From assembly GCA_964522435.1 (NCBI GenBank), contig CAZFUL010000002.1, positions 108,631 through 172,630 of the forward strand: 64,000 nucleotides of DNA. The letters are read 5' to 3'. The notes beneath the pieces are model-generated. The model was not told where the DNA came from. It made no database searches and saw only the letters and a list, made by a program, of their open reading frames with translations. Position 1 is the stretch's first letter; the number at the start of each line of letters is the position of its first letter. Both the position numbers and the translations under genes were made by a program. This DNA is from an uncultured Gammaproteobacteria bacterium. Lineage in GTDB: Bacteria > Patescibacteriota > Patescibacteriia > Magasanikbacterales > UBA922. Below, piece after piece: positions 9,148 through 49,250 of the stretch.

Positions 9148-10125
9148 TTATTTGAGGGACGTACGCCATGCAATAAGTTTGCGGAGACCCTCTTCTAAAC
9201 TATACTGTGGAATAAACTGTAAGTCTTTTTGAATTTTTTCTGTTGACCCAATACGATTTTTAACAAATTGACGCGCATCATCTGCTGTATAGGGGATATA
9301 CTCAACTGATACAGTGGATTGTGTTAATCGAAGCATCGTATTACACAAATCACGAATACTTGTTTGTATGCCCGTGCCCACATTATAAAAACCATGCGTA
9401 ACAGGAGCCGTAAGGGCGGCAATATTTGCGCGTGCAACATCATCAACATACACAAAATCATAGGCTTGTGAGCCATCGCCGTTTACTTGTGGAGAACGCT
9501 GTGTATCAATACTATTTAACACATTTGGTATTACTCCCGTATAGGCTGCTTGTTGATCTTGATGTGGGCCATATACATTCATATAGCGTAATCCGATAAC
9601 CGGTAATTTGTATCGATCATTAAACGCCGTACACATCGATTCTCCTGCAATTTTTGTTGCTCCGTAAAAATTTTTATTATGAAAGGGATGTTCTTCTGTC
9701 ATGGGAGTAAAAGCCGCATCGCCATATACAGAAGCAGACGAAGAATAAATGAGTTTTTTTACTCCGTGCTTTACACAGGCTTCTAACACATTAAATGTTC
9801 CTGCGATATTTACTTCAAATGCCGTGCGAGGAAAATCTTTGCAATGGAGTAACCACATGGCTGCTAAATGAAATACATAATCAACACCTGCAAATGCGTT
9901 ATCCAATACATCAACGTCGCGAATGTCTCCGCCATAGGGAAACAGGCTGCACCGTGGATCTTGCAGACTTTCAGTAAGATATTCTTTTTTTCCACGAGTA
10001 AAATTATCGTAAATAACGACTTCTTTTACTGGGTGTTTAAGGAGTTCTTTTACCACGGCACTCCCAATAAATCCCGCACCACCAATCACGAGTACTTTTT
10101 TATTATCAAGAGGAAAATCCATCAT
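9148..10125 (-). CDS. NAD-dependent epimerase/dehydratase (extended SDR)
   Basis: 'VLVIGGAGFIGSAVV' Rossmann motif and 'YGATK' YxxxK catalytic motif. Confidence 0.8.
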   Translation of the reverse strand: MMDFPLDNKKVLVIGGAGFIGSAVVKELLKHPVKEVVIYDNFTRGKKEYLTESLQDPRCSLFPYGGDIRDVDVLDNAFAGVDYVFHLAAMWLLHCKDFPRTAFEVNIAGTFNVLEACVKHGVKKLIYSSSASVYGDAAFTPMTEEHPFHNKNFYGATKIAGESMCTAFNDRYKLPVIGLRYMNVYGPHQDQQAAYTGVIPNVLNSIDTQRSPQVNGDGSQAYDFVYVDDVARANIAALTAPVTHGFYNVGTGIQTSIRDLCNTMLRLTQSTVSVEYIPYTADDARQFVKNRIGSTEKIQKDLQFIPQYSLEEGLRKLIAWRTSLK

Positions 10126-10137
10126 ACTACGTTACGA

Positions 10138-11184
10138 TTATGTATCTAATAAAATAGGCAAACTCAACACGGTGTTACACAATTGTTCAGAAATAGGAAA
10201 GTCACCTGTTGTATACCCTAAATACGCAAAACAGGGCTGGGTATGTAAGGGTTCAGGATAATAGATCATCGTTGGTATGCCTTGTTCCTCAAATTTGTGT
10301 ATCAACGCATCGCGGTTGGGTACTTGTATGGTGTATTGATTATAACTATGCCCACTTGCCGCAGCAACAAAAGGAATCGTGATATCACTTTCTGAAGAAA
10401 ATTGTTCATCATATTTTTTTGCTTGTGCCTGTCGTGCTGCAATTTCCTTTGGTAGATAGGGAAGTTTTACTCGTAAGATTGCTGCTTGTATAGTATCTAA
10501 TCGAGAATTATGTCCTAACATTTCGTGGTGATATTTTTTTGTCTGTCCTTGTAATTTTAATAAGCGAATTTTTTCAGCAAGCGCTGCATCATTGGTGCTA
10601 ATAGCACCCCCATCACCATAGCAACCTAAATTTTTGGTTGGAAAAAAAGAGAAGGTATTAATATGACCAAATGTACCGCTTTGTTTGCCGTTCCAGGTTG
10701 CCCCAGTACTTTGCGCGCAGTCTTCAATAACAAAAAGATCATGTTCTTTTGCCAGTGTCATGACCTCGTCCATATTCGCCATTTGTCCAAATAAATGTAC
10801 GGGGATAATTGCTTTGGTTTTTGCTGTTATTTTTTTTCTTGCTTCTGCTACATCAAGAGTATATGTTTGTTGATCAACATCACAAAACACGGGTGTTGCG
10901 CCAAGGTGCGCAATAACATTTGCTGTTGCCACATAGGTAAAGGCAGGAACAATGACCTCATCGCCCTGAGTAATACCCAGTGCTTTTAATGCAAGAAAAA
11001 GCGCATCAGTCCCATTTGCACAACTGACAACATGCGGTATTCCCAGATAGTTCGCGAATTCTTGTTCAAATAATTCTACTTCTTCGCCCCCAATAAAAAC
11101 ACCTGCAGATAATACTCGTTGTACTGCGTCGAGAATTGCTTGTTTATAAGGTTTATTGTCTAGTGAGAGGTTTATGAAGTCCAT
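10138..11184 (-). CDS. DegT-family sugar aminotransferase (WbpE-like)
   Basis: 'TFSFFPTKNLGCYGDGGAISTN'. Confidence 0.8.
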   Translation of the reverse strand: MDFINLSLDNKPYKQAILDAVQRVLSAGVFIGGEEVELFEQEFANYLGIPHVVSCANGTDALFLALKALGITQGDEVIVPAFTYVATANVIAHLGATPVFCDVDQQTYTLDVAEARKKITAKTKAIIPVHLFGQMANMDEVMTLAKEHDLFVIEDCAQSTGATWNGKQSGTFGHINTFSFFPTKNLGCYGDGGAISTNDAALAEKIRLLKLQGQTKKYHHEMLGHNSRLDTIQAAILRVKLPYLPKEIAARQAQAKKYDEQFSSESDITIPFVAAASGHSYNQYTIQVPNRDALIHKFEEQGIPTMIYYPEPLHTQPCFAYLGYTTGDFPISEQLCNTVLSLPILLDT

Positions 11185-11253
11185 AGATTAAACGTGTATG
11201 TGGGGTGGTTATTAACCCCCTCCAGCCTCCCCCTTGATAAGGGGGAGAGTTAT

Positions 11254-11745
11254 TTATTTGATTATATTGCCTTCCTCATCTATTTTCCCTTGTACTTTTG
11301 CTGGATTTCCATAGACAAGGGTATAGGGGGGAACATCTTTGGTGACTACTGCGCCTGCGCCAATAAACGCATACTCACCAATGGTAACGCCAGCAACAAT
11401 GGTTGCATTTGCTCCAATGGTCGCTCCTTTTTTTACCAGTGTTTTTTTATAGATACCATGTTTGGGAAAAGCACTGCGGGGATTGCTATCATTGGTAAAG
11501 ACCACACTTGGGCCACAAAATACCTCATCTTCAAGTGTCACGCCTTTGTAGACAGAAACATTATTTTGAATTTTAACCATATTTCCAATGGTAACACCGT
11601 CCGCAACAAACACATTTTGTCCCAACACACAGCTGTGCCCGATTGTCGCGCCAGACATAATGTGAGAGAAATGCCAAATGCTGGTGTTATCGCCAATGCT
11701 GACGTTATCGTCGATAATAGAAGAGGGATGGATAGTGGGGGACAT
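11254..11745 (-). CDS. hexapeptide-repeat sugar N-acetyltransferase (WbpD/PglD-like)
   Basis: Left-handed beta-helix hexapeptide repeats (IGDN, IGHS, IGNM, IGAN, IGEY). 163 aa. Confidence 0.75.
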
Positions 11746-11748
11746 ACA

Positions 11749-12657
11749 TTATGTATTTGTTATTTGATTCACTAATGCAATCGCTGGCCGGGCGTCTGCA
11801 ATACGAAAGCCATTTCCTTTCAGTGTTTCTTCATAGACCTTGGTATGTAAATCAGTAAAGCCATCAGAAAATTCCATTTCTTCTCCATCAATGGTAATAG
11901 AACGGTAGGTACGTTGTCCTGTTTGTTGAATCTGTGTTGGTAGGTCATTGCTATCAATAGACAAAAACCAACTCACGGTCGCGTGTTCTAATTCAATAAC
12001 CCCACGCATGCGTTGTTGTTCTGAGAGCTGTACTTCTTGCTGTTGTACGCTACCAAATAACCACAGCATCATATCAAAAAAATGCACCCCAATGTTACTT
12101 GCTAATCCCCCAGATTTTTGGGGATTATTTTTCCAGGATTGTAAGTACCAATTTCCACGAGACGTGACATAGCGAATTTGTACCTGTTTTTTTGAGGCAG
12201 GCGATTGTTTTTTCCACGCCTCTATGTCTTGTTTTATTTTTTGTATCGCAGGATGTACCCGCAATTGTAAAATAGTATAGACCCGTTGTCCTGTTTCTTT
12301 TTCAATTTGTTCAAGGGCGTCTAAACTGTGGAGATCTAAGACAAGTGGTTTTTCACAAATGGCGTCTGCGCCTTGTTGTAGCGCCATGCGAATATGCGCG
12401 TCGTGCAAATAATTGGGTGAACAAATACTGACATAGTGTACGCGTTCAGTTTCACCACGGCGGCGTAAGATATCGAGGTGTTTGGCAAATTGTTCTGCTT
12501 CGGTAAAAAAAGCAGTATTGGGAAACGATTTATCTAAAAAACCCACAGAATCATGGGGATCAAGGGCGGCAACAAGGCGGTTTCCTGTTTGTTGCATGGC
12601 TTCTATATGCCGGGGAGCAATGTACCCAGCAGCGCCGATAAGAGCAAAATTTTTCAT
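11749..12657 (-). CDS. Gfo/Idh/MocA-family NAD-binding oxidoreductase (WbpB-like sugar 3-dehydrogenase)
   Basis: N-terminal Rossmann 'MKNFALIGAAGYIAPRHIEA'. It is first in the operon and followed by an acetyltransferase and an aminotransferase, matching WbpB-WbpD-WbpE logic. Confidence 0.7.
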   Translation of the reverse strand: MKNFALIGAAGYIAPRHIEAMQQTGNRLVAALDPHDSVGFLDKSFPNTAFFTEAEQFAKHLDILRRRGETERVHYVSICSPNYLHDAHIRMALQQGADAICEKPLVLDLHSLDALEQIEKETGQRVYTILQLRVHPAIQKIKQDIEAWKKQSPASKKQVQIRYVTSRGNWYLQSWKNNPQKSGGLASNIGVHFFDMMLWLFGSVQQQEVQLSEQQRMRGVIELEHATVSWFLSIDSNDLPTQIQQTGQRTYRSITIDGEEMEFSDGFTDLHTKVYEETLKGNGFRIADARPAIALVNQITNT

Positions 12658-12842
12658 AAAAAATAATAAAGAAAGGCATTCATGGAATTGCCTCTCTTAG
12701 TCTACCCCAAGCGATTCTCTTTTTCAAGCAAAAATAAAAAATCCCCCTATAGTCATCAAAAAAATATATTGATGAACATAGGGGGATGGGCGCGGGGCAA
12801 GGGTGACGAAGCCTTGCGCGCGCCGAATTGGTAATAAGGGGA

Positions 12843-15437
12843 TTAAGGCTGCAGGTGCAGCCCGCATCCCTCATGATCGTATGCGGACGGGGGGGATGCC
12901 GGGTTGAGGATATCTCGACCCCGGATCAGGTTGCCGCCGGAGTCGTAGTCGAACTCCTGCAGCAGGGTCACCTGACCGTTCCCATTCCGGATACGCAGGG
13001 TGGTGGGCAAGCGGTCGTTCACGTTGACATACGTGAACGTCCACTCAAATTCGGTCCGGCCCAGGTTGTCCTGGACCAGGATGCGGCGGAGGAGATTGGG
13101 GTTGCCCCCGTACTCCCACACCCAGGGGTTCGTGGGAACCCCTTCGCACTCGGTGTTGGCGTACTGGTTCCCACGGGTGGGTCGACCAGCGCCATCAAAG
13201 TTCGTGACCAGCACACAGGTGCCGGCCACAAAGTCGATACGGCGGCTCCAGTAGGTGCCGCCCTGCCCATCACTGACGGGCAGGAATTCTGCGACCACCT
13301 GGCCATTGACCAGGCTCCGACAGGCCATTGCCGGGGCGCGCACCGTCGATGCGGCACAGCCTTGGCACAGGCCCTCGCCGTTTTCGCCGCAGGCACCGCT
13401 GCCCGGCACCCCCAGGGCGCATTGGCCTTGGGGGGGCTGGCAGGGAGCGCCGACGTTGAAGTCTTCGTCGACGGTGCCGTCGCAGTCTTCGTCTTCGGCG
13501 TTGCAGAGCTCGGCCGGAGCCGGGCCGCATTCGCCGCAGGCGTTGACCAGGTTTTCGTCGACGGTGCCGTCGCAGTTGTCGTCGATGTTGTTGCACTGAG
13601 CCCCTTCGGGGCGGGGAGTCACCCCACCCACACAGGCGGCCCAGGCGCCGTTGACGCAGGTCTGCGTGCCTTCGCGGCACGCGCCAACATTGCTCCCGCA
13701 GTTGCGGGTGGTGTCGTTGGCGCAGGCACAGCCCTCATTGGCTGTGCCATCGCAGTCTTCGTCGAGACCTGCTTGGTCGCAGACCTCTTGGGGCACGGGG
13801 CCACAGGCGCCACAGGCGTTGAACACACCTTCGTCGATGTTGCCATTGCAGTTGTTGTCGATCCCGTCGCAGATTTCCGGCTGGGCAGGACCCGGCTGGC
13901 AATCTGCGACGAGTTGACCGTTTTGGCACACCATCTGACCAGCGCTCTCACACGCGCCGGTGCCGCACATCGTGGGACTTGCGGCGATCCCTTCGTCACT
14001 GCGGCCATCGCAGTCGTCATCTTCGTTGTTGCAGATCTCGGGGATGGGTTGCCCCGCACCCGAGCAGGCACCAAAGGTGCCATCCTCGAGACAGACCTGC
14101 ACCCCGGGGGTGCAGCGGCCGACATTCTCGCCGCAGGGGCGGCTTTCATCGGGGGTGCAGCCGCAGACCCCGTCGTCCACGCTGCCGTCACAGTCGTTGT
14201 CAAGGTCGTCGCAGACTTCCTCACCGGGGGCCCCGGCTTGGCAGGCTGCTTCGTAGGCGCCGTTGATACAGCGCCGGTTGACCTCACGTCGGCACTCGCC
14301 GACGCCACAGCTCTCCGGAATGGGAGCTGCGTTTTCGTCGCTGCGGCCATCGCAGTCGTCATCGATGTTGTTGCAGGTCGCATCAGCCGCGGCCGGTTGC
14401 CCAGCCTGGGCATTGCAGACCACGCCGTTGCCGCGGGGATCGCAGACGTTGATCCCGTTGGAGCGACAGGCGCCGACGCCGGCGTTGCAGGCCTGCCCCA
14501 GAGTGGGGAAGCTCTCGTCGATCGTGCCGTCGCAGTCATCATCCAGGCCATTGCAGGTTTCAGCCTGAACGCCCGGACTGACATTGGCGGTGCATTGCTC
14601 GCAGCCGGTCAAAACACCGGCGGCGCATATGCCAGGCAGGCTGCTGTCGCAGCCCGCCTCACCTTGGCCGGGGAACGACTCATCGCTGCGGCCGTCGCAG
14701 TCGTCGTCGAGGCTGTTGCAGGTCTCCTCCCCAGGCATGCCCGGGGTGCAGGAGCGGTTGGTGAAGCCACCTTCGCAGGTGACCGTCCCTTCCGCCCTGC
14801 AGATGCCTTCGCCGCAGAGGATTTCCTCCGGGACGAATTCATCAGGATCGCATTCGCAGTTCTCGTCGACGTCGCCGTCGCAGTCGTTGTCGCGCTCGTC
14901 GCAACCGTCGTCTTCCGACTCCGGCTCGCCAGGCGTACACTCGGGTACGCGCTGCCCATTCAGGCAGACTTGCCGTCCGTTGCGCTGGCAAACGCCTACC
15001 CCGCAGTTGCCTGCAGGAAATGGCTCAAGGTCTTCGTCGACGTTGCCATCGCAGTCGTTGTCTGCGTCATCGCAGCGCTCCGGAGCAGGTCGCTCGACCT
15101 GCTCACACACGAAGGCTCCATCCGCCAGGCAGCGGATGAGGCCAACGTGGCAGACCCCCAAGTTGGGGGTGGTGCAGGGCGCGTCGTGGACACAGGCGGG
15201 CGGCCCTTGGTCAGGGCTGCCATCGGGGCGCGGGGTCTCTGCGTCGGTTTGCGGCTCGCCCAGGTCGGGCGCCGCCCCGTCTTCTTCTACGCCGCTGTCG
15301 GAAGGAGGGGTGATCTGGGCGTCAGCAACGACGCCCGTGTCAGACCCGCCCTGAGGCGGGTCAGGAAAGTCTCCGGGGCAGCCCGTGAGGCTGCCGAGAA
15401 GCAGGGCCCAAAACAGGGCCGTCATGAGGTTCTTCAT
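12843..15437 (-). CDS. GC-rich secreted lipoprotein with about 11 DDDCDG-type cysteine-rich repeats, ending in a YD-repeat start (apparently truncated)
   Basis: ATG start with a signal peptide plus lipobox 'LLGSLTGC'. Repeats run 'CNxxDDDCDGxxDE'. The C-terminus reads '...TLLQEFDYDSGGNLIRG...' and stops exactly at the GC-content boundary. The opposite-strand 918-aa ORF is a GC shadow. Confidence 0.7.
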   Translation of the reverse strand: MKNLMTALFWALLLGSLTGCPGDFPDPPQGGSDTGVVADAQITPPSDSGVEEDGAAPDLGEPQTDAETPRPDGSPDQGPPACVHDAPCTTPNLGVCHVGLIRCLADGAFVCEQVERPAPERCDDADNDCDGNVDEDLEPFPAGNCGVGVCQRNGRQVCLNGQRVPECTPGEPESEDDGCDERDNDCDGDVDENCECDPDEFVPEEILCGEGICRAEGTVTCEGGFTNRSCTPGMPGEETCNSLDDDCDGRSDESFPGQGEAGCDSSLPGICAAGVLTGCEQCTANVSPGVQAETCNGLDDDCDGTIDESFPTLGQACNAGVGACRSNGINVCDPRGNGVVCNAQAGQPAAADATCNNIDDDCDGRSDENAAPIPESCGVGECRREVNRRCINGAYEAACQAGAPGEEVCDDLDNDCDGSVDDGVCGCTPDESRPCGENVGRCTPGVQVCLEDGTFGACSGAGQPIPEICNNEDDDCDGRSDEGIAASPTMCGTGACESAGQMVCQNGQLVADCQPGPAQPEICDGIDNNCNGNIDEGVFNACGACGPVPQEVCDQAGLDEDCDGTANEGCACANDTTRNCGSNVGACREGTQTCVNGAWAACVGGVTPRPEGAQCNNIDDNCDGTVDENLVNACGECGPAPAELCNAEDEDCDGTVDEDFNVGAPCQPPQGQCALGVPGSGACGENGEGLCQGCAASTVRAPAMACRSLVNGQVVAEFLPVSDGQGGTYWSRRIDFVAGTCVLVTNFDGAGRPTRGNQYANTECEGVPTNPWVWEYGGNPNLLRRILVQDNLGRTEFEWTFTYVNVNDRLPTTLRIRNGNGQVTLLQEFDYDSGGNLIRGRDILNPASPPSAYDHEGCGLHLQP

Positions 15438-15855
15438 GGTATGTCTCTCTTTCTCCTCGTATTCGACGAGGGTGTGTGTATGGGTTTGCGTTTACCAGGC
15501 GCTCACCCGGATTCTGTTGCAACAGGCAACAGAGAAAATATAGGGAATACCCTATGCTTTATCTGTTGCCTGTTATGTGTATAGGTATATCTCTTATTGT
15601 AGAGAGCAAGCGCTTCTTTGAGTATACTGTTTTTGTTATCGCAAAAACAGCTTTTTTGCCTAAAGAAAGCTCCTATTTATGCCATAAATAAGCGAATTTG
15701 TCAAGTGGTATAGGTACTCATGCTACAGGGAAAGTGCTTCTTTGTTCCTTCATATCGCCTGTCTGTATCCCTGTGTTTCAAGGGGGAATATATACGTTGC
15801 TCATTACGCAAAAATGCGTTACACTACCCATACTTATTTTTGATGTATATTGTGT

Positions 15856-16752
15856 ATGAACTACCTGGTTACTGGCGGTGCTGGATTTATTGGTTCTCAT
15901 ATTACAGACACCCTACTTGCTCAAGGCCATAAGGTGATTGTGGTCGATAATTTATTATTAGGAAAAAAAGAATTTGTTCAACCACAAGTCCAATTTGAAC
16001 AAGTCGATATTTGTGATTTTGATACCCTACGCTCTTTGATGAATGGGATTGATGGGGTGTTTCATGTTGCTGCAGATCCACGTTTACCTATTTCTATTGA
16101 AAATCCCCGTGCGACCCATGAGAGTAATGTAAACGGTACCCTCAACGTACTCGTTGCGGCAAAAGAAGCTGGCGTGAAAAAAGTGGTGTTTAGTTCAACC
16201 TGCGCGATGTATGAAGATAACCAGCCATTACCTTTGAACGAATTGTCCCGTGTGAATCCAGAAAGTCCCTATGGCTTGCATAAAAAAATAGGCGAGGATT
16301 ATTTGCGCCTCTTTGCAAAGTTGTATGGCTTGAAAACAATTTCTTTGCGCTATTTTAATGTCTATGGTCCAAGAAAAACTGCGGATGGCGGATACCCTAT
16401 GGTGATTCCTATTTTCTTAAAACAACGAGCACAAGGTGTCCCAATGACGATTGTTGGGGATGGAAAACAAACACGAGATTATGTCCATGTGCGTGACGTG
16501 GTACAAGCAAATATCTTAGCCATGAATAGTGACATAGGAGATGGTCGTGTCTTTAATATTGGATCTGGCAGACAAATAAGTGTAAACGAAATTGCCGAGA
16601 TGATTGGTGGAGAAAAAGTGTATTTGCCACAACGTCCCGGAGAAATGCGCTTTATTCAATGTGACGCCGCTGCGGCAAAAGCCGCTTTTGGTTGGGAATC
16701 GACCGTTGTCTTTGAAGAGGGGTTGGAAGAATTAAAAAATCAGGCATCTTAG
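15856..16752 (+). CDS. NAD-dependent epimerase/dehydratase (GalE-like)
   Basis: 'MNYLVTGGAGFIGSH' and YxxxK 'YGLHK'. Confidence 0.8.
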   Translation: MNYLVTGGAGFIGSHITDTLLAQGHKVIVVDNLLLGKKEFVQPQVQFEQVDICDFDTLRSLMNGIDGVFHVAADPRLPISIENPRATHESNVNGTLNVLVAAKEAGVKKVVFSSTCAMYEDNQPLPLNELSRVNPESPYGLHKKIGEDYLRLFAKLYGLKTISLRYFNVYGPRKTADGGYPMVIPIFLKQRAQGVPMTIVGDGKQTRDYVHVRDVVQANILAMNSDIGDGRVFNIGSGRQISVNEIAEMIGGEKVYLPQRPGEMRFIQCDAAAAKAAFGWESTVVFEEGLEELKNQAS

Positions 16753-17600
16753 CCTGATTTTTTTTGCCTCTGTTTCCCGCAGTGTAAGGTATTTAAGAGT
16801 AATCGTGCAACCGTTACTGGGCCCACACCACCAGGGGTTGGCGTAACGTATGCCGCAAGGGCAGCAACACTCTCTATATCTACATCGCCATACATGTTTC
16901 CGTTTTCATCATAATCAACCCCCGCGTCAATAATAATGGCGTCTTTTTTTACCATGCCTGCATTGATTAAGTGTTTTTTTCCTACACCACTAATAATAAT
17001 ATCTGCTTGTGTTGATATTTTTTCTGGATGATCTGTTGTGCTATCAATTACAAACACCCGTGCCCCTTGATGGCGGGCAATAAGTGCCATAGGTTTACCA
17101 ACGAGTACGCCATGACCAAAAATAGCAACGGTTTTATTTGTAAATGACATACCAAGAGCCTCTAAAATAGAGCAAATCGCTCCTGGTGTTGGGGGAAGTA
17201 AGCGCAAGTCACCCTGTGCTAATCGTTGCATCTGTATGTCAGTTAAACAATCAACATCACGGTCAGGGTCAATGGCATTGAGAATCTGTTGTGTATCAAT
17301 ATGCGCGGGAAGGGGGAGCTGTACAATAAGGCCAGAAGGCGCTTGTTGTTGAATGTTTGTTATCTCTTTGAGCAGCGCTTGCTGTGTAATGGTTTCAGGA
17401 AATTCGTATCGAGTAAAAACAATACCACATTCTTTTGCGGCTAATTCTTTTTGTTTTACATAACTGTGAGATGGTTTGTCGTTTCCCACTAATATAACCG
17501 CCAAAGAAACCACCATACCTTGAGCATGGAGTTCTTGCACTTGTTTGGCAATACTTGCGCGTAATTGTTGGGCAATGGCTTTGCCATCAATACGTATCAT
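16749..17600 (-). CDS. folD: bifunctional methylenetetrahydrofolate dehydrogenase/cyclohydrolase
   Basis: 'YVKQKELAAKECGI', 'GKPMALIARHQGARVFV' and 'PGGVGPVTVARLL'. The start is set at the ATG of MIRIDGK. Confidence 0.85.
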   Translation of the reverse strand: MIRIDGKAIAQQLRASIAKQVQELHAQGMVVSLAVILVGNDKPSHSYVKQKELAAKECGIVFTRYEFPETITQQALLKEITNIQQQAPSGLIVQLPLPAHIDTQQILNAIDPDRDVDCLTDIQMQRLAQGDLRLLPPTPGAICSILEALGMSFTNKTVAIFGHGVLVGKPMALIARHQGARVFVIDSTTDHPEKISTQADIIISGVGKKHLINAGMVKKDAIIIDAGVDYDENGNMYGDVDIESVAALAAYVTPTPGGVGPVTVARLLLNTLHCGKQRQKKSG

Positions 17601-20585: not shown

Positions 20586-20659
20586 GTAACAAGGGGGAGA
20601 TTCGAACTCCCGACCTGAGGGTTATGAATCCTCCGCTCTTACCAACTGAGCTACCCTGT
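20586..20659 (-). tRNA. tRNA-Met (anticodon CAT; an elongator or lysidine-Ile2 type cannot be excluded)
   Basis: Hand-folded. Acceptor GACAGGG/CCUUGUU includes two G-U pairs. D-arm is GCUC-AGUUGGUAA-GAGC, the anticodon loop is UUCAUAA, and the T-arm is GGGAG-UUCGAAU-CUCCC. No CCA is encoded. Confidence 0.7.
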
Positions 20660-20860
20660 CGTCGCCCCTAAAGGGAATTTTTGTTTCCTAGCCAGTATAC
20701 GGTATAAAAAGAAATATTTCAAGAGTCTACTATTGTTCTCCTGAACATCATCCGTATCTACGAATAAGGTATTTGGAGTGGGAAGTGCATAAATGCCCTT
20801 CCCATACCGGCAGGTGAGCCACCGCGTCAATCGCGTTGGTTGCACACTGTTTTGTGGTTG

Positions 20861-21775
20861 TTACTTCTTCACGGCGAGGAAGTAGGTGTTGGAGTCCCAC
20901 TTCTCGGGCTCTTTCTCCGAGAATGAGAAGCTCCGCCATTCGTCAAGGCTCAGGGAAGCGAAGTAGATTGTTTCGCGTCCACTGTATGTTTTAATGGCGT
21001 AGTGCCAGCCAATGGTCACGATCGGACCTTTGGCAAACATCCCTTTGCTTGCCTCGGCAAAGGAGAGAATTTCTCCCAGTAGGGCCGGTTGCAGGCCTCG
21101 CTTGGCCAATTCGTAGGACACTCCTTCGCTCGTCATCGGTTGATCGAATTTGATGATTTGGAAGGTTACATTACGGTAACCGTCGATCATCGGGAATTGG
21201 ATCTCGTCGACGGTGCCCCGTACACCCCAGGGGAACACCGTAACGTTGTCGAGTTCGGCCAGCGCGAGCATTTCCCGCAAGGTCAATCCCAGGTCAAACT
21301 TTACGTCGAAGGTATCTCCGGGCTTGATCTCGCGATAGCCTGCAGGCATGAAGCGCCAGGGATCGAAGGAGATACGCGAACCCTGGGAACATCCCAGGGT
21401 GACCTGCCAGCGGTTGATGGGGTCAGCCTTTCGTGAAAGCAGCATGTAGCTGCATTTGCACTTGCAGCGCATGGGAGTGTTGTCGTCCTCGACGTCAGTC
21501 AGGGTGCGGAGCTCCCAATCCCCGCCGCCGTTGGCGTTGAAGTGGCGCGCGATGGCCTGAAGGCGCAGGTTTTCATCTTGATCCGGCTCCGTCGCGGCGT
21601 TGGCCGCGTTCACTCGCTGCTTCACTTCTTCGGGCAGCGCGTCGAACATCTGCGCACGCCAGGAGCGTTGCGTGTCGGCCTGGCTTTCGTGCCAGGGCTT
21701 GATCGTGGGGCGGGCTGCTGTGCAGGCCGCCAAAAACCAGCTGATGATCAGCAGAGAAAGGTTTTTGAATTTCAT
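20861..21775 (-). CDS. GC-rich lipoprotein of unknown function
   Basis: ATG start, signal peptide and lipobox 'FLAACT'. 304 aa with much higher GC than its neighbours. It lies between two tRNA genes. Confidence 0.6.
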   Translation of the reverse strand: MKFKNLSLLIISWFLAACTAARPTIKPWHESQADTQRSWRAQMFDALPEEVKQRVNAANAATEPDQDENLRLQAIARHFNANGGGDWELRTLTDVEDDNTPMRCKCKCSYMLLSRKADPINRWQVTLGCSQGSRISFDPWRFMPAGYREIKPGDTFDVKFDLGLTLREMLALAELDNVTVFPWGVRGTVDEIQFPMIDGYRNVTFQIIKFDQPMTSEGVSYELAKRGLQPALLGEILSFAEASKGMFAKGPIVTIGWHYAIKTYSGRETIYFASLSLDEWRSFSFSEKEPEKWDSNTYFLAVKK

Positions 21776-21956
21776 CGAGATATCCTTTCCTCAGGTGTTG
21801 TTTCGCCCATCATATTTCACACTATGTGGCTTGGGCGCGTAGCATGTTGTTTACCAAACATTGATACACAATATGCTCTGCGTCAATTGGTTTACGAGGA
21901 AGAATAAGGCATAGAGTATATATACAAAAAAAGAGGTTTTGTCAACCTCTTTATTG

Positions 21957-22028
21957 TAGCCCCAAGGGGAATTGAACCCCTGTTACCTGGATGAGAACCG
22001 GGCGTCCTAGCCACTAGACGATGAGGCC
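21957..22028 (-). tRNA. tRNA-Glu (anticodon CTC)
   Basis: Hand-folded. Acceptor is GGCCUCA/UGGGGCU, D-arm GUCU-AGUGGCUA-GGAC, anticodon loop UUCUCAU, T-arm AGGGG-UUCAAUU-CCCCU. It resembles the E. coli tRNA-Glu architecture. Confidence 0.65.
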
Positions 22029-22589: not shown

Positions 22590-23573
22590 ATGAAGAAGAT
22601 TCTTTTGTTGTTGCTCCTCGCTGGGTTGGGCGTCCTCGTATGGAAAAACCATACCCCCAAGAACACGTTGGGAGGGGACGCGCCGCCGGTAGTGACGGTC
22701 GCACAGAAGATGACTGAGCTGCTCACTGCCTACGAGGCGCTCCATCCCCAGCCGGATCATTTCTGGTTGACGGGTGGAGATCAGCTGATGTTGATCGGTG
22801 CTCCCGCGTACAACAAGCTCCTCCAGACTTGGAAGGCGGACGCCATCGCGGGTTTGCGTCGCAACATGGAGGCGCACCCGCTCATGCACGACCTCATGAG
22901 CGAGTTTCCTGACTTCCGGATCACTGAGGTGGTTCGGCAGGGAAATAGCTACGGGTCCCGGGCGGTGTTCCCTGGAAAGATTGAGGGGAATATCGAACAG
23001 TTCATGCAAGAGCAAGGGAAGTTCCTCGAAGTCGCCCTCATCCCAGAGCAAAACTGGGATCACTCGGCGTTTCCCTCTTGCTTGTACTACAACAAGGGAT
23101 GGGGAGCCGTGATGGTGGTTGGCGTGGACATCCCTGCAACGTTTGGCACGGCGCTGTTGGCTCATGAACTTGGGCATGCGTTGCGTCATCGCCAAGGTGC
23201 CGGGTCTGCAACCGCTCACCCGAGCACGGATCTCTTCATCGGCGAAGAGGTGGAGATGCATGTTCTTGAACATGAGGTGTTGAACTTCGCGGTTCAGGGC
23301 AAGTTCAATCAGCTCTTGGATCGCATCATCGCCCGCGCGGCCAACAAGCAAGACATGAACCAGGTGATCAAGTCTGTCACTGCAGAAGACCTCAAGGCCT
23401 ACGACCAGCTCTTCGGGCTTGAGTCTGCTGGCAAAGAGATTGCCTCACTTGCCCTTGGGCAGTTCCTGTTGTCCTTGGGCTTCCGCATGATTGACGGCTA
23501 CATCACAGAGCCGCAAGCCGCACATGCAGAGAAGATTCGCTTCTATCGTTGGATCAGCAATCCGGCGAAGTAG
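22590..23573 (+). CDS. GC-rich exported protein with HExxH zinc-metallopeptidase-like motif
   Basis: Start at 'MKKILLLLLLAGLGVLVW' (signal peptide or anchor). It carries 'ALLAHELGHALRH'. The high-GC antisense ORF 22488..23351 is a shadow. Confidence 0.45.
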   Translation: MKKILLLLLLAGLGVLVWKNHTPKNTLGGDAPPVVTVAQKMTELLTAYEALHPQPDHFWLTGGDQLMLIGAPAYNKLLQTWKADAIAGLRRNMEAHPLMHDLMSEFPDFRITEVVRQGNSYGSRAVFPGKIEGNIEQFMQEQGKFLEVALIPEQNWDHSAFPSCLYYNKGWGAVMVVGVDIPATFGTALLAHELGHALRHRQGAGSATAHPSTDLFIGEEVEMHVLEHEVLNFAVQGKFNQLLDRIIARAANKQDMNQVIKSVTAEDLKAYDQLFGLESAGKEIASLALGQFLLSLGFRMIDGYITEPQAAHAEKIRFYRWISNPAK

Positions 23574-43978: not shown

Positions 43979-44012
43979 AACCCTGCAATATTGTATTACA
44001 GGGTTATTTCTT
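43979..44012. terminator. rho-independent terminator (hairpin aaccctg...cagggtt plus T-rich tail)
   Basis: Perfect 7-bp stem followed by 'atttctttcctcctttcttttttct'. Confidence 0.55.
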
Positions 44013-44054
44013 TCCTCCTTTCTTTTTTCTCCTTGGTTTGGGGTGATTGTCGCG

Positions 44055-44222
44055 TCAGCTCTTGGGCTGGGCGGGAATACGGCGAAGCACCTCGAGCGTT
44101 TCTCGATGGAGCTTGCACAGGAGAGCAATCTGCTGTGCGTTCAACGTTCCGGTCCCGCCATAGACCCGTTCGTACAGATCAGGGTCAAGGCAGCAGGGGC
44201 ATTTCTTATACAGAAGTGGCAT
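44055..44222 (-). CDS. small GC-rich Cys/His protein, paralog 3 (CPCC...LCKLH)
   Basis: 'MPLLYKKCPCCLDPDLYERVYGGTGTLNAQQIALLCKLH'. It shares the motif C-x(1-2)-C ... Q-Q-I-A-x-L-C-x2-H with the gene upstream. Confidence 0.35.
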   Translation of the reverse strand: MPLLYKKCPCCLDPDLYERVYGGTGTLNAQQIALLCKLHRETLEVLRRIPAQPKS

Positions 44223-44236
44223 CGTTCTTCTCCTTG

Positions 44237-44419
44237 TTAGCGGCGCTGGGCGCTGCTGGGTTTGGGATTTTCTTGCTCTGCTTGCCACGCTGCCTTATGC
44301 TGTGAGCACAGGTCAGCGATCTGTTGCTTGTCCAGATTCAAAAAGGGCGAGCGTCCGGTGTTGTTCCGTGGATAGCTGCACAAATGGCAGTGCCGGTTGA
44401 ACTTAAAGAACGCAGGCAT
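44237..44419 (-). CDS. small GC-rich Cys/His protein, paralog 2 (CHLC...LCSQH)
   Basis: 'MPAFFKFNRHCHLCSYPRNNTGRSPFLNLDKQQIADLCSQH'. Confidence 0.35.
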   Translation of the reverse strand: MPAFFKFNRHCHLCSYPRNNTGRSPFLNLDKQQIADLCSQHKAAWQAEQENPKPSSAQRR

Positions 44420-44435
44420 GGTTTTTCTCCCTTCC

Positions 44436-44669
44436 TCAGTGATTGTCGCCATAGTCGTTGAACTGCTTCGTCAACGCATCGAAGATCACCTGGGCTTCCT
44501 TGTAGTTCATTTCTCGTCGGCGGCTCACCATACGAACATGCGGTTCGCACAGGTGGTGGGGTTCTTTCTCCACGACATGCGCTCCGAGCTCGAAGAGCTT
44601 AAGCAACATCGGTTTGCTGGTGCAGAGCACACAGGCCGAATCGTGGGGAATTGGCTCGATTTCTACCAT
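44436..44669 (-). CDS. small GC-rich Cys/His protein, paralog 1 (CVLC...HHLCEPH)
   Basis: 'MVEIEPIPHDSACVLCTSKPMLLKLFELGAHVVEKEPHHLCEPH'. First of three same-strand tandem genes. Confidence 0.3.
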   Translation of the reverse strand: MVEIEPIPHDSACVLCTSKPMLLKLFELGAHVVEKEPHHLCEPHVRMVSRRREMNYKEAQVIFDALTKQFNDYGDNH

Positions 44670-44807
44670 CCTCGTTCTCCTTTGACCTGAGGGTGTTTCA
44701 TAGGAAGCCATATTTTTTTCTTTTTGTCAATGCCCAAGGCAAGGAGCTTGTATTTTTATGCTCATCCCGTATACTAGGGGTCAAGACAACCTTGTGTAAC
44801 GCAGTAT

Positions 44808-48659: not shown

Positions 48660-49250
48660 GATACAATGATGCGTGGCCTATTTGTTCCTACCGCAGAGCA
48701 GTACTTCCAACTTCTGATGGTGGGACTGTGGTATCAGATTCCTCTGCAGGTCGGAGAAAACGGCCTGATCACCACGTTTGATTTCCGAAGCACGAGCACC
48801 TGTCATCATGTTATGCTGGGAATCTTGCAGGTTCTCGGATATGACATTGATGCGGCAAAACGACTGATCAAAAAAGCGAGCAAGGATAGGACCCTCCATG
48901 CGCAGCTTCGCCGCTACGCCGTGGCGTTTGATGCGAACGGAAGTCGAGAAGAACAGATTAATCAAATCCAAACAACACCTGCGTCGTTGTTGCACAAAAC
49001 AGCACTCACCGAGGACACAAACTGGGTCAAGGTGTTGTTGGATACAAAATTGTTCATTACCGTGGCAGGGGCAAAGCGTGCTGCTCAGTTTGAGGGGCGA
49101 TTTACTGGCCTTACCTATGAAAAGTATTATCGGGTAAAAGAAGAGCACGCTGCACGGGTTGCGGCTATGTCAGAAGCCGCTCGATCTGCAATGATGCTTC
49201 AACACCGCCGAAGCATGTCGGCATTCGCTGATGATCATTCTTCTGACTGA
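48660..49250 (+). CDS. hypothetical protein in GC-elevated cassette
   Basis: 194 aa with higher GC than its neighbours. It has its own promoter and two downstream hairpins, and no recognisable motif. Confidence 0.45.
   Translation, partial: DTMMRGLFVPTAEQYFQLLMVGLWYQIPLQVGENGLITTFDFRSTSTCHHVMLGILQVLGYDIDAAKRLIKKASKDRTLHAQLRRYAVAFDANGSREEQINQIQTTPASLLHKTALTEDTNWVKVLLDTKLFITVAGAKRAAQFEGRFTGLTYEKYYRVKEEHAARVAAMSEAARSAMMLQHRRSMSAFADDHSSD

What the first reader, a model, noticed from the sequence alone, without database searches (positions are those of the whole stretch)
12786..15450. GC-rich island A: myxobacteria-style cysteine-rich-repeat lipoprotein that stops mid YD-repeat exactly at a GC cliff
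About 2.6 kb at roughly 68% GC (by eye) lies inside a roughly 38% GC genome. The minus-strand gene has a clean ATG, an RBS-like GAGGAG, a signal peptide with lipobox, and about 11 'CNxxDDDCDGxxDE' repeats of the kind seen in large secreted myxobacterial proteins. A YD/RHS-like segment ('EFDYDSGGNLIRG') then begins and is cut by a stop codon that coincides with the composition boundary. A GC-rich hairpin (cgcggggcaagg...ccttgcgcgcg) follows inside AT-rich DNA. The island sits between the start of the amino-sugar operon and galE. The pattern points to a foreign fragment, either horizontal transfer of a truncated toxin-like surface protein or a chimeric join.
Basis: seen in the sequence. Interest (0 to 1): 0.75.

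Follow-up and report, generated by a model that had tools for sequence, protein, structure and literature searches.

The report
Foreign GC-rich surface-lipoprotein gene islet
A 2.7-kb GC-rich stretch in a low-GC Magasanikbacteria (candidate phyla radiation) genome is a complete, foreign-looking gene for a cysteine-rich surface lipoprotein, probably acquired by horizontal transfer and not a truncated toxin or an assembly error; that is an ordinary kind of event, although this genome shows it three times within 11 kb.

Summary
The composition anomaly is real. Window 12786-15450 has 65.7% GC against about 40% elsewhere. The minus-strand gene 12843-15437 (864 aa) has GC3 0.77; the host median is 0.33.

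The protein has four parts:
- a lipoprotein signal peptide (lipobox LTGC);
- an acidic, proline-rich tether;
- 11 MopE-type cysteine-rich modules (Pfam PF11617, E 2e-36);
- a 160-aa orphan C-terminal domain with 4-5 degenerate YD-like hairpins.

It is not cut at the GC cliff. The last clear YD core is complete, 20 residues follow it, and 56 nt of 3' sequence with a GC-rich hairpin lie before the cliff at 12787/12788. No RHS core, toxin domain or immunity gene is present.

The host is Candidatus Magasanikbacteria. A Tara Oceans relative carries a MopE-repeat lipoprotein in the same slot next to galE.

Two more GC-rich single-gene islets lie in the same 11 kb, and relatives have empty sites there. 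One islet recurs, still GC-rich, in an independent sample.

All three islet genes carry Shine-Dalgarno motifs, which host genes lack. A second assembler's contig crosses the 3' junction.

Verdict: a real, probably horizontally acquired surface adhesin-like gene. The donor is unresolved. It is a new member of a known kind and of modest interest.

The parts
12728..12787 (-). Host-composition intrinsic terminator. It is an 18-bp AT-rich hairpin (arms 12741-12759 and 12769-12787) followed on the minus strand by UUUUUUAUUUUU (12740-12728). The -35/-10-like promoter of the sugar operon (12727-12699) lies just beyond it.
   Evidence: Inverted repeat I5. RNA fold of 12700-12850 on the minus strand: -53.3 kcal/mol, z -4.98. 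Promoter-like site.
12788..12824 (-). GC-rich hairpin in the 3' untranslated part of the islet. It starts 18 nt after the stop codon. Its outer edge is the composition cliff (12787/12788).
   Evidence: Sequence, fold and 40-nt GC scan.
12843..15437 (-). Complete coding sequence of the 864-aa lipoprotein (ATG 15435-15437, TAA 12843-12845). GC by codon position is 0.68/0.53/0.77.
15378..15437 (-). Signal peptide with lipobox (residues 1-20, MKNLMTALFWALLLGSLTG|C).
   Evidence: Read from the translation. It fits the lipobox rule [LVI][ASTVI][GAS]C, which I quote from established knowledge.
15195..15377 (-). Acidic, Pro/Gly/Asp-rich linker (residues 21-81) with no cysteines. Its role as a tether is inferred.
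   Evidence: Translation and cysteine positions.
13323..15194 (-). Cysteine-rich stalk (residues 82-705) with 11 MopE-type modules of the form CNxxDDDCDGxxDE. Units of 54 and 60 aa alternate (a 342-nt super-repeat), and there are two short 30-aa units.
   Evidence: Pfam PF11617 at 124 bits, 10 stretches. DNA repeat families D1 and D6. Invariant Cys/Asp/Gly columns in alignment A1. AlphaFold model of residues 230-468 with pLDDT 77.9, showing small beta-hairpin modules.
12846..13322 (-). Orphan C-terminal domain (residues 706-864) with 4-5 degenerate YD-like beta-hairpins and a 20-residue tail.
   Evidence: Word-based search found no homologues. Full HMMER against 1.84 billion proteins gave 6 hits, best E 5e-8, all RHS_repeat proteins matched as repeats. 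Pfam RHS_repeat is sub-threshold. The AlphaFold model is all-beta but has pLDDT 39.
15438..15520 (-). 5' leader at about 50% GC carrying the Shine-Dalgarno-like GAGGAG (15453-15458). It probably came in with the gene.
15521..15574 (.). Long inverted repeat at the 5' edge of the islet. It has perfect 13-nt arms (AACAGGCAACAGA) enclosing a second palindrome. Its role is unknown; it could be an operator or an insulator.
   Evidence: RNA fold -34 kcal/mol, z -5.5.

Best explanation
Window 12788 to about 15520 is a real single-gene islet of foreign DNA in the chromosome of a Candidatus Magasanikbacteria bacterium (Patescibacteria/CPR). It arrived by horizontal transfer as a whole transcription unit: leader with a Shine-Dalgarno site, complete ORF and 3' hairpin. 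It sits between the galE-like gene and the amino-sugar operon, and it now ends at a host-type terminator.

The product is a surface lipoprotein. I infer that it is anchored by its N-terminal lipid, held off the membrane by a 60-residue acidic tether, and extended by a disulfide-rich stalk of 11 MopE-type modules that probably bind calcium or another metal. A small YD-like beta-domain sits at the tip and most likely serves as the binding end of an adhesin.

A related genome has a MopE-repeat lipoprotein with a different tip in the same slot. The islet is therefore best read as a foreign replacement or variant of a surface protein typical of this lineage, not as a toxin fragment.

Shown: composition, gene integrity, family membership, synteny and one junction. 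Inferred: transfer direction, adhesin function, metal binding and replacement.
For: Composition and signals:
- GC is 0.657 against 0.40.
- GC3 is 0.77 against a host median of 0.33, z = 8.
- RSCU correlation with host genes is -0.29, while host genes correlate at a median of 0.83 with each other. Tetranucleotide correlation is -0.38, against at least 0.88 for host chunks.
- Shine-Dalgarno motifs occur in 3 of 3 GC-rich islet genes but only 5 of 35 host genes (p = 0.007). Part of the Parcubacteria lack the anti-SD motif (PMC9297842).
- GC-rich non-coding sequence flanks the ORF on both sides.

Gene and protein:
- The ORF is complete and has a lipobox.
- PF11617 scores 124 bits.

Host and synteny:
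- RNase Y is 75-88% identical to Magasanikbacteria proteins.
- The Tara scaffold L011 has RNaseY-HU-tRNAs-PBP-PilT-FolD-GalE-(UGDH x2)-MopE lipoprotein in the same order and relative orientation. That protein, P0069, has the lipobox LVSGC and 12 MopE stretches.

Reality of the islets:
- The Logan contig L001 equals window 11560-12879 exactly and crosses the cliff.
- Islets B and C interrupt tRNA-Glu/tRNA-Met and RNaseY/HU, which are adjacent in 3 and 5 relatives respectively.
- A homologue of islet C (54% aa) that is also GC-rich lies at the same place in the independent run SRR26268931.

Precedent: horizontal transfer into Patescibacteria, mostly from other Patescibacteria, is documented (PMC12455944).
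Against: - No donor or close homologue was found. The best hits are 30-39% identical and reflect only the repeat scaffold. Different segments have different best hits.
- The 5' junction (15437-15527) has no independent confirmation. Both Logan contigs stop near the islet edges, at 12879 and 15527.
- There is no integrase, tRNA or flanking direct repeat at islet A.
- A relative has a MopE lipoprotein in the same slot with mildly raised GC3 (0.41 against 0.23-0.28). Vertical descent with a gene-specific GC bias is therefore not excluded.
- The stop codon is TAA, the host's preferred stop (37 of 50) and, from general knowledge, rare in GC-rich genomes.
- The exact protein is not in the protein collection, although its neighbours are.
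- The function is inferred from architecture only. No solved structure matches by sequence or by fold.
Confidence: 0.7

Rival explanations
1. The gene is vertically inherited. It is the orthologue of the slot-mate MopE lipoprotein seen in the Tara relative, and some gene-specific force keeps it GC-rich or made it so. Candidates are selection on codons or mRNA, GC-biased conversion among repeats, or continual recombination with GC-rich alleles circulating in the population.
For: - The relative has the same slot, orientation, lipobox and repeat architecture.
- Its copy also has raised GC3, 0.41 against 0.23-0.28.
- Islet C stays GC-rich (GC3 0.69 and 0.89) in two lineages whose synonymous sites are saturated (RNase Y dS 1.1, third-position identity 0.39). 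This does not fit simple decay toward host composition after a single transfer.
Against: - GC-richness extends into non-coding flanks, namely the 3' hairpin and the 5' leader.
- The gene has a Shine-Dalgarno site that host genes lack.
- The C-terminal domains of the two slot-mates are unrelated.
- P0069 is no closer to the islet protein than Myxococcota proteins are. It ranks 69th overall and between 2nd and 96th by segment.
- GC3 is uniformly high in the non-repeat parts too.
- I know of no mechanism that gives GC3 0.77 in a genome at 0.33.
Confidence: 0.13
2. It is an assembly chimera. A fragment of a GC-rich organism from the same metagenome was spliced into the Magasanikbacteria contig.
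For: - The source is a metagenome-type contig whose proteins are all singletons.
- Logan contigs from the same run end at 12879 and begin at 15527, close to both edges.
- The exact 864-aa product is absent from the collection.
Against: - The Logan contig passes through the cliff at 12787/12788 and continues for 92 nt of GC-rich DNA without a break.
- The insert is exactly one complete gene with its leader and hairpin, lying in an intergenic space.
- Both flanks have host composition, and the galE-side flank continues the gene order of a relative.
- The same pattern occurs three times in 11 kb, and the junctions are not inside the conserved tRNA genes.
- The homologue of islet C is GC-rich at the same position in a different sequencing run.
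Confidence: 0.06
3. It is a remnant of a larger YD/RHS-type polymorphic toxin or shell protein whose distal part was lost at or after transfer.
For: - The C-terminal 110 residues match RHS_repeat proteins as repeats (E 5e-8 to 7e-4).
- A possible fifth YD core (AYDHEGCGL) lies 4 residues from the end.
- The frame stays open for 28 codons past the TAA.
- TAA is the host-preferred stop, so a late nonsense mutation is conceivable.
Against: - Only 4-5 degenerate repeats are present, and they fall below Pfam's threshold.
- There is no RHS core, no DPxGL motif and no toxin domain.
- Nothing downstream resembles an immunity gene.
- A hairpin follows the stop within the GC-rich DNA.
- At most 19 further codons could lie inside the islet.
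- None of the 120 best MopE homologues has PF05593, so no longer parent architecture is known.
Confidence: 0.07

Closest known systems
MopE-related / 'putative metal-binding motif' (Pfam PF11617) repeat proteins of Myxococcota and other bacteria, for example the Sandaracinus amylolyticus MopE-related proteins
   Same: Tandem CNxxDDDCDGxxDE modules with conserved Cys/Asp/Gly columns. The proteins are large and secreted or surface-located. The best database hits are of this kind.
   Different: - The islet protein is only 30-39% identical to any of them.
- At 864 aa it is shorter than most of them, which run from about 900 to 1500 aa.
- It sits in a 40% GC CPR genome.
- It ends in an orphan YD-like domain that none of the 120 best hits carries.
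- It has no detectable similarity to the solved MopE structure or to any PDB chain.
The slot-mate MopE-repeat lipoprotein of a Tara Oceans Magasanikbacteria scaffold (P0069, 1409 aa) and MopE lipoproteins of other CPR (P0045 Uhrbacteria, P0081 Patescibacteria)
   Same: Lipobox, MopE stalk and a distinct C-terminal tip. The genomic slot beside galE/UGDH and the orientation match.
   Different: - P0069 has near-host composition (GC3 0.41) and a weak FGE-sulfatase/lectin-like tip.
- The islet gene has GC3 0.77 and a YD-like tip.
- Identity is 38%, confined to the repeats.
Rhs/YD-repeat polymorphic toxins and teneurins
   Same: YD-type beta-hairpin repeats. In teneurins a MopE-like cysteine-rich motif also precedes the YD region (PMC3278476).
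   Different: There is no long YD shell, no NHL domain, no RHS core, no C-terminal toxin and no immunity gene.
Horizontally transferred genes and genomic islands described in Patescibacteria (PMC12455944)
   Same: A compositionally deviant, individually transferred gene in a streamlined CPR genome.
   Different: Here three single-gene islets with GC3 0.70-0.77 and Shine-Dalgarno sites lie within 11 kb. There are no mobility genes, and at least one islet is conserved and still GC-rich in a diverged relative.

Membership tests
PF11617 MopE-type repeat proteins | Several copies of the motif that together score above Pfam's gathering threshold. | tested here: met
   124 bits against a cutoff of 27, with 10 stretches. 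An 11th degenerate copy is visible by eye.
PF11617 MopE-type repeat proteins | A conserved Cys/Asp/Gly scaffold shared with family members. | tested here: met
   Alignment A1 has 24 invariant columns, nearly all Cys, Asp or Gly.
PF11617 MopE-type repeat proteins | Metal (Cu or Ca) binding by the motif. | not testable with these tools
   This can only be inferred from the family name and the acidic DxDxDG-like loops. No PDB match by sequence or fold.
Rhs/YD-repeat polymorphic toxins | A YD/RHS repeat array recognised by PF05593 above threshold. | tested here: not met
   19.4 bits against a cutoff of 22, E 1.5e-3, 2 stretches. Only 4-5 degenerate cores are present.
Rhs/YD-repeat polymorphic toxins | An RHS-associated core with the PxxxxDPxGL motif, followed by a toxin domain. 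| tested here: not met
   No Pfam or NCBIfam hit. The motif search found nothing.
Rhs/YD-repeat polymorphic toxins | A cognate immunity gene immediately downstream. | tested here: not met
   Tandem hairpins, a promoter and the GFO/WbpB-like sugar operon lie downstream.
Bacterial lipoproteins (Lgt/LspA substrates) | A signal peptide ending in a lipobox with an invariant Cys. | tested here: met
   MKNLMTALFWALLLGSLTG|C, with Cys at residue 20. This was judged by eye against the consensus; no predictor was available.
Bacterial lipoproteins (Lgt/LspA substrates) | Actual lipidation and surface display in this host. | not testable with these tools
   Native-composition CPR homologues also carry lipoboxes, which suggests that the pathway exists.
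Horizontally acquired genomic islet | Composition and codon usage that deviate from the host. | tested here: met
Horizontally acquired genomic islet | An empty site in related genomes. | tested here: inconclusive
   For islet A, the only syntenic relative has another MopE lipoprotein in the slot. For islets B and C, relatives do have empty sites.
Horizontally acquired genomic islet | Mobility hallmarks: an integrase, a tRNA target or flanking direct repeats. | tested here: not met
   None at islet A. The flanking hairpin motifs do not recur in the window.
Horizontally acquired genomic islet | An identifiable donor lineage. | tested here: inconclusive
   No homologue exceeds 39% identity. Best hits by segment are inconsistent. 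GC-rich CPR such as Uhrbacteria (a 55-60% GC contig) are as plausible as Myxococcota.

The most novel reading that the evidence does not exclude
This Magasanikbacteria lineage may keep a set of fixed genomic slots: beside galE, between tRNA-Glu and tRNA-Met, and between RNase Y and HU. In these slots, surface or secreted protein genes would be replaced again and again by GC-rich foreign alleles, or would be actively held GC-rich.

The source could be a GC-rich partner organism, possibly the cell the episymbiont lives on, or a GC-rich CPR. On this reading the islets are not one-off accidents. They would be a standing, non-ameliorating 'foreign-looking' surface-gene compartment in an otherwise Shine-Dalgarno-less, AT-rich genome.
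Probability: 0.2. Interest if true: 0.65.

Novelty: new member of a known kind. Interest (0 to 1): 0.35.

Why it matters
Taken alone, this is one more horizontally acquired surface-protein gene in a CPR bacterium, which is useful mainly for annotation. It should be named a MopE-repeat lipoprotein, not a toxin fragment, and should not be removed as contamination.

The context is more interesting. There are three GC-rich, Shine-Dalgarno-bearing, single-gene islets for exported proteins in 11 kb of a genome that otherwise lacks Shine-Dalgarno sites. One slot is shared with a relative, and one islet persists at GC3 0.69-0.89 across saturated synonymous divergence.

If that pattern holds genome-wide, it offers a handle on two questions: who these uncultured episymbionts exchange DNA with, and which surface proteins mediate attachment.

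Tried and rejected
- **Truncated Rhs toxin.** Rejected: there is no core, toxin or immunity gene, and the repeats are below threshold.
- **Integron cassette or attC.** The 3' hairpin has no GTTRRRY/RYYYAAC core sites by eye, and there is no integrase in the window. Rejected without a formal attC model.
- **Repeated palindromic element at the borders.** Neither hairpin motif recurs in the window.
- **Plasmid or phage origin.** Against plasmids there is only a 76-nt motif-level match to a Sandaracinus MopE gene. Viral contigs give 30-43% repeat-level matches and none to the N- or C-terminal parts.
- **Donor search.** The whole protein, the C-terminal domain by word index, the same domain by full HMMER and segment-wise ranking gave no consistent nearest relative.
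- **Synteny through the GFO gene in reference genomes.** Only 54-60% relatives from other phyla turned up.
- **Synteny through galE in metagenomes.** Of 74 loci, none has a MopE neighbour and none is syntenic.
- **Structure of the C-terminal domain.** pLDDT was 39, which is unusable, so no fold search was run.
- **Structure of four MopE modules.** pLDDT was 77.9, but Foldseek against the PDB gave nothing below E = 2.
- **PDB sequence search.** No match.
- **Sample metadata.** The run accession was not found in the paper library.
- **Exact-protein look-ups for the 864- and 860-aa forms.** Neither is on record.
Full report
**Observation.** Sliding-window composition shows a sharp plateau of 62-70% GC from about 12,790 to 15,440, inside sequence of 38-42% GC. 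The plateau is filled by one minus-strand ORF, 12843-15437, with an ATG start and 864 codons. The long plus-strand ORFs over the same DNA are the usual stop-free antisense frames of GC-rich sequence. Only the minus-strand product matches a protein family: Pfam PF11617, 'Cu-binding_MopE, putative metal-binding motif', E 2.4e-36, 124 bits, ten stretches. Codon-position GC is 0.68/0.53/0.77 and is uniform along the gene. Among 53 ORFs of the window the median GC3 is 0.33, and this gene lies 8 robust SD above that.

**Anatomy of the protein.**
- Residues 1-20 (MKNLMTALFWALLLGSLTG|C) form a lipoprotein signal peptide with a lipobox.
- Residues 21-81 are an acidic Pro/Gly/Asp-rich stretch without cysteine.
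- Residues 82-705 hold 78 of the 79 cysteines. At the DNA level the units alternate between 162 and 180 nt, which gives a 342-nt super-repeat.
- I aligned residues 230-468 with 22 homologous segments and two other segments of the same protein. This gave 24 invariant columns, nearly all Cys, Asp or Gly.
- The AlphaFold model from that alignment has mean pLDDT 77.9 and shows strings of small beta-hairpin modules. It matched no solved structure (best Foldseek E 2.3). The sequence matched no PDB chain either.

**The C-terminal part and the truncation claim.** The last roughly 160 residues have no homologue by word-indexed search. A full HMMER scan of 1.84 billion representative proteins gave six weak hits (E 5e-8 to 7e-4).
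- All six hits are RHS_repeat proteins. They match as shifted repeats of the type xYxYDxxGNLxR.
- Pfam's own RHS_repeat model scores 19.4 bits, below its cutoff of 22.
- Four cores can be read: FDGAGRP, WEYGGNPNLL, FTYVNVNDRLP and FDYDSGGNLI. A possible fifth is AYDHEGCGL, near the end.
- So a YD-like segment exists, but it is a short, degenerate array and not the start of an Rhs shell.
- There is no RHS core, no DPxGL motif and no toxin domain. No candidate immunity gene lies downstream.
- A single-sequence AlphaFold model of this part is all-beta but has pLDDT 39, so I did not use it.
- Truncation of a somewhat longer ancestor cannot be excluded. The frame stays open for 28 codons past the stop, and TAA is the host's preferred stop (37 of 50). 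Against that, at most 19 more codons could lie inside the GC-rich DNA, and that space is occupied by a hairpin.

**Boundaries and signals.**
- The stop codon is at 12843-12845. The GC cliff is at 12787/12788.
- Between them lies a GC-rich hairpin (12788-12824). Directly after it comes an AT-rich 18-bp hairpin followed by UUUUUUAUUUUU on the minus strand, a textbook intrinsic terminator in host composition.
- The two hairpins fold together at -53.3 kcal/mol, z -5.
- The promoter-like site of the sugar operon follows at 12727-12699.
- On the 5' side, about 85 nt of roughly 50% GC leader carry GAGGAG 15 nt before the ATG. Then comes a long inverted repeat, 15521-15574, with perfect 13-nt arms (-34 kcal/mol, z -5.5).
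- Host genes in the window almost never have a Shine-Dalgarno motif (5 weak cases in 35). All three GC-rich genes of the window do (one-sided Fisher p = 0.007).
- A published survey found the anti-SD motif in only 48% of Parcubacteria (PMC9297842).
- The foreign character therefore extends beyond the codons, to the start signal and the 3' end.

**Host and neighbourhood.** The window's RNase Y is 75-88% identical to proteins named Candidatus Magasanikbacteria. Its proteins come from one NCBI contig of 185,058 bp and are singletons at 90% identity.
- On the left of the islet is a GFO/MocA oxidoreductase, hexapeptide acetyltransferase, DegT aminotransferase and epimerase operon.
- On the right are a galE-like epimerase, FolD, PilT and a PBP.
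- A Tara Oceans scaffold (L011, with a second assembly L012), whose RNase Y is 76% identical, has the string RNaseY-HU-tRNAGlu-tRNAMet-PBP-PilT-FolD-GalE-UGDH-UGDH. A 1409-aa MopE-repeat protein follows, divergent from galE exactly as in the window.
- That protein (P0069) also has a lipobox (LVSGC) and 12 MopE stretches, but a different C-terminal end that is weakly FGE-sulfatase/lectin-like.
- Its GC3 is 0.41, against 0.23-0.28 for its neighbours.
- The slot beside galE therefore holds a MopE-stalk lipoprotein with a variable tip in at least two diverged members of the lineage.
- The two proteins share 38% identity in the repeats only. That is no more than the islet protein shares with Myxococcota proteins.

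**The islet is not alone.** Two more genes have the same signature:
- Islet B is 20861-21775 (304 aa, lipobox LAAC, GC3 0.73).
- Islet C is 22590-23573 (327 aa, N-terminal hydrophobic anchor, HELGH motif, GC3 0.70).
- Codon usage of islet A correlates at 0.84 with B and 0.53 with C, and at -0.29 with the host.
- Islet B separates tRNA-Glu(ctc) from tRNA-Met(cat), which are 4-146 nt apart in L011, L089 and L091.
- Islet C separates RNase Y from HU, which are adjacent in L011, L087, L088, L089 and L091.
- The closest relative found is L090, a Logan contig from a different run (SRR26268931). Its RNase Y is 88% identical in protein and 81% in DNA. Right after RNase Y, in the same orientation, it has a 63-66% GC gene whose product is 54% identical to islet C over 158 residues.
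- Such islets are therefore real features of this lineage.
- Oddly, the L090 copy has GC3 0.89, although synonymous sites between the two genomes are saturated (RNase Y dS about 1.1; third-position identity between the islet copies 0.39). I cannot explain this by one ancient insertion followed by neutral decay toward host composition.

**Chimera test.**
- The Logan contig L001 was built from run SRR12762285 by a different assembler. It matches window 11560-12879 exactly, so it runs from the sugar operon through the terminator, the cliff, the GC hairpin and the stop codon into the coding sequence.
- A second Logan contig (L010) equals 15527-16825 and stops 90 nt short of the ATG. The 5' junction is therefore unconfirmed.
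- The Logan contigs do end near both edges of the islet. The cliff at 12787/12788 itself, however, lies inside an unbroken contig.
- The insert is exactly one complete gene in an intergenic space.
- Host composition resumes on both sides, and the galE-side gene order matches the Tara relative.
- Taken together with the independent-sample evidence for islet C, I put the chimera reading at about 6%.

**Donor.** The donor is unresolved.
- The best whole-protein hits are mostly Myxococcota MAG proteins at 33-39% identity. CPR proteins (Uhrbacteria, an unclassified Patescibacteria bacterium) and a Woesearchaeota protein also appear.
- Ranking by segment gives a different best hit for each segment.
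- The Uhrbacteria MopE gene lies in a 55-60% GC contig, again beside UGDH and an epimerase. A GC-rich CPR is therefore as plausible a source as a myxobacterium.
- This fits the report that most transfers into Patescibacteria come from other Patescibacteria (PMC12455944).
- Plasmid and viral collections gave only motif-level matches.

**How it most likely works (inference).** After export and lipidation at Cys20, the protein would be anchored in the membrane of a cell that, as far as is known for CPR bacteria, has no outer membrane. The 60-residue acidic tether and a stalk of 11 disulfide-locked modules would project the C-terminal beta-domain outward. The acidic DDDCDGxxDE loops resemble calcium-binding loops of other cysteine-rich extracellular modules; that comparison is from my own knowledge and was not tested here. 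The relative's slot-mate has the same stalk with another tip. This supports a 'stalk plus exchangeable binding head' adhesin or receptor, which would suit an organism thought to live attached to other cells. Expression in this host is untested.

**Comparison and novelty.** By Pfam membership the protein is a MopE-related repeat protein. It is not an Rhs toxin, because the defining features were tested and not met. The combination of a MopE-like cysteine-rich motif followed by YD repeats recalls teneurins (PMC3278476), but only superficially. The event, transfer of a single surface-protein gene into a Patescibacteria genome, is of a known kind. Three things go beyond the routine: the cluster of three islets that carry Shine-Dalgarno sites, the shared slot, and the failure of at least one islet to lose its GC-richness. 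None of these can be settled with the data at hand.

Noticed in passing
window 20861-21775 (with tRNA-Met 20586-20660 and tRNA-Glu 21956-22028): Islet B is a 304-aa lipoprotein gene (lipobox LAAC) with no Pfam family, GC3 0.73 and an SD-like GAGGAAAGGA. It is inserted between two tRNA genes that are 4-146 nt apart in three relatives. Its codon usage correlates at 0.84 with islet A.
   Followed up: partly
window 22590-23573; L090 3449-3923: Islet C is a 327-aa exported protein with an HELGH (HExxH) motif and GC3 0.70, inserted between RNase Y and HU. A 54%-identical homologue with GC3 0.89 sits at the same place in an independent run (SRR26268931), although synonymous sites are saturated between the two genomes. 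Five other relatives have no gene there. The lack of decay toward host composition is unexplained.
   Followed up: partly
whole window, 30 nt upstream of 38 starts: Host genes almost never have a Shine-Dalgarno motif (5 weak cases in 35), whereas all three GC-rich islet genes do. The host may belong to the Parcubacteria that lack the anti-SD motif. The window contains no 16S gene, so this could not be checked.
   Followed up: partly
window 44000-44700: A 700-nt stretch of 52-55% GC has no ORF over 104 aa and no Rfam family above threshold (only a sub-threshold Thr_leader hit at its edge). It may be a decayed GC-rich islet.
   Followed up: partly
window 48666-49250: A 194-aa ORF has intermediate GC3 (0.51), an SD-like motif and no Pfam family. 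It may be an older, partly ameliorated acquisition.
   Followed up: no
window 15521-15574: A nested inverted repeat with perfect 13-nt arms (AACAGGCAACAGA) lies between islet A and galE. It is unique in the window. The Logan contig L010 starts inside it. Its function is unknown.
   Followed up: partly
window 9148-12657; L002-L008: The closest reference-genome matches of the GFO, hexapeptide-transferase and DegT trio left of the islet are in Balneolales, Planctomycetota and Bacteroidota (54-60%), not in CPR. The sugar operon may itself be an old import that now has host composition.
   Followed up: no
L011 10001-14230 (P0069): The slot-mate MopE lipoprotein of the Tara relative ends in a weak FGE-sulfatase/C-type-lectin-like stretch (E 0.04). 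Diversity-generating retroelements usually target that fold class. I did not search for such an element.
   Followed up: no
L092 7145-8752: In the Uhrbacteria contig (55-60% GC), a 40% GC stretch encoding a serine recombinase lies just upstream of the MopE gene. This is the mirror image of the situation in the window.
   Followed up: no
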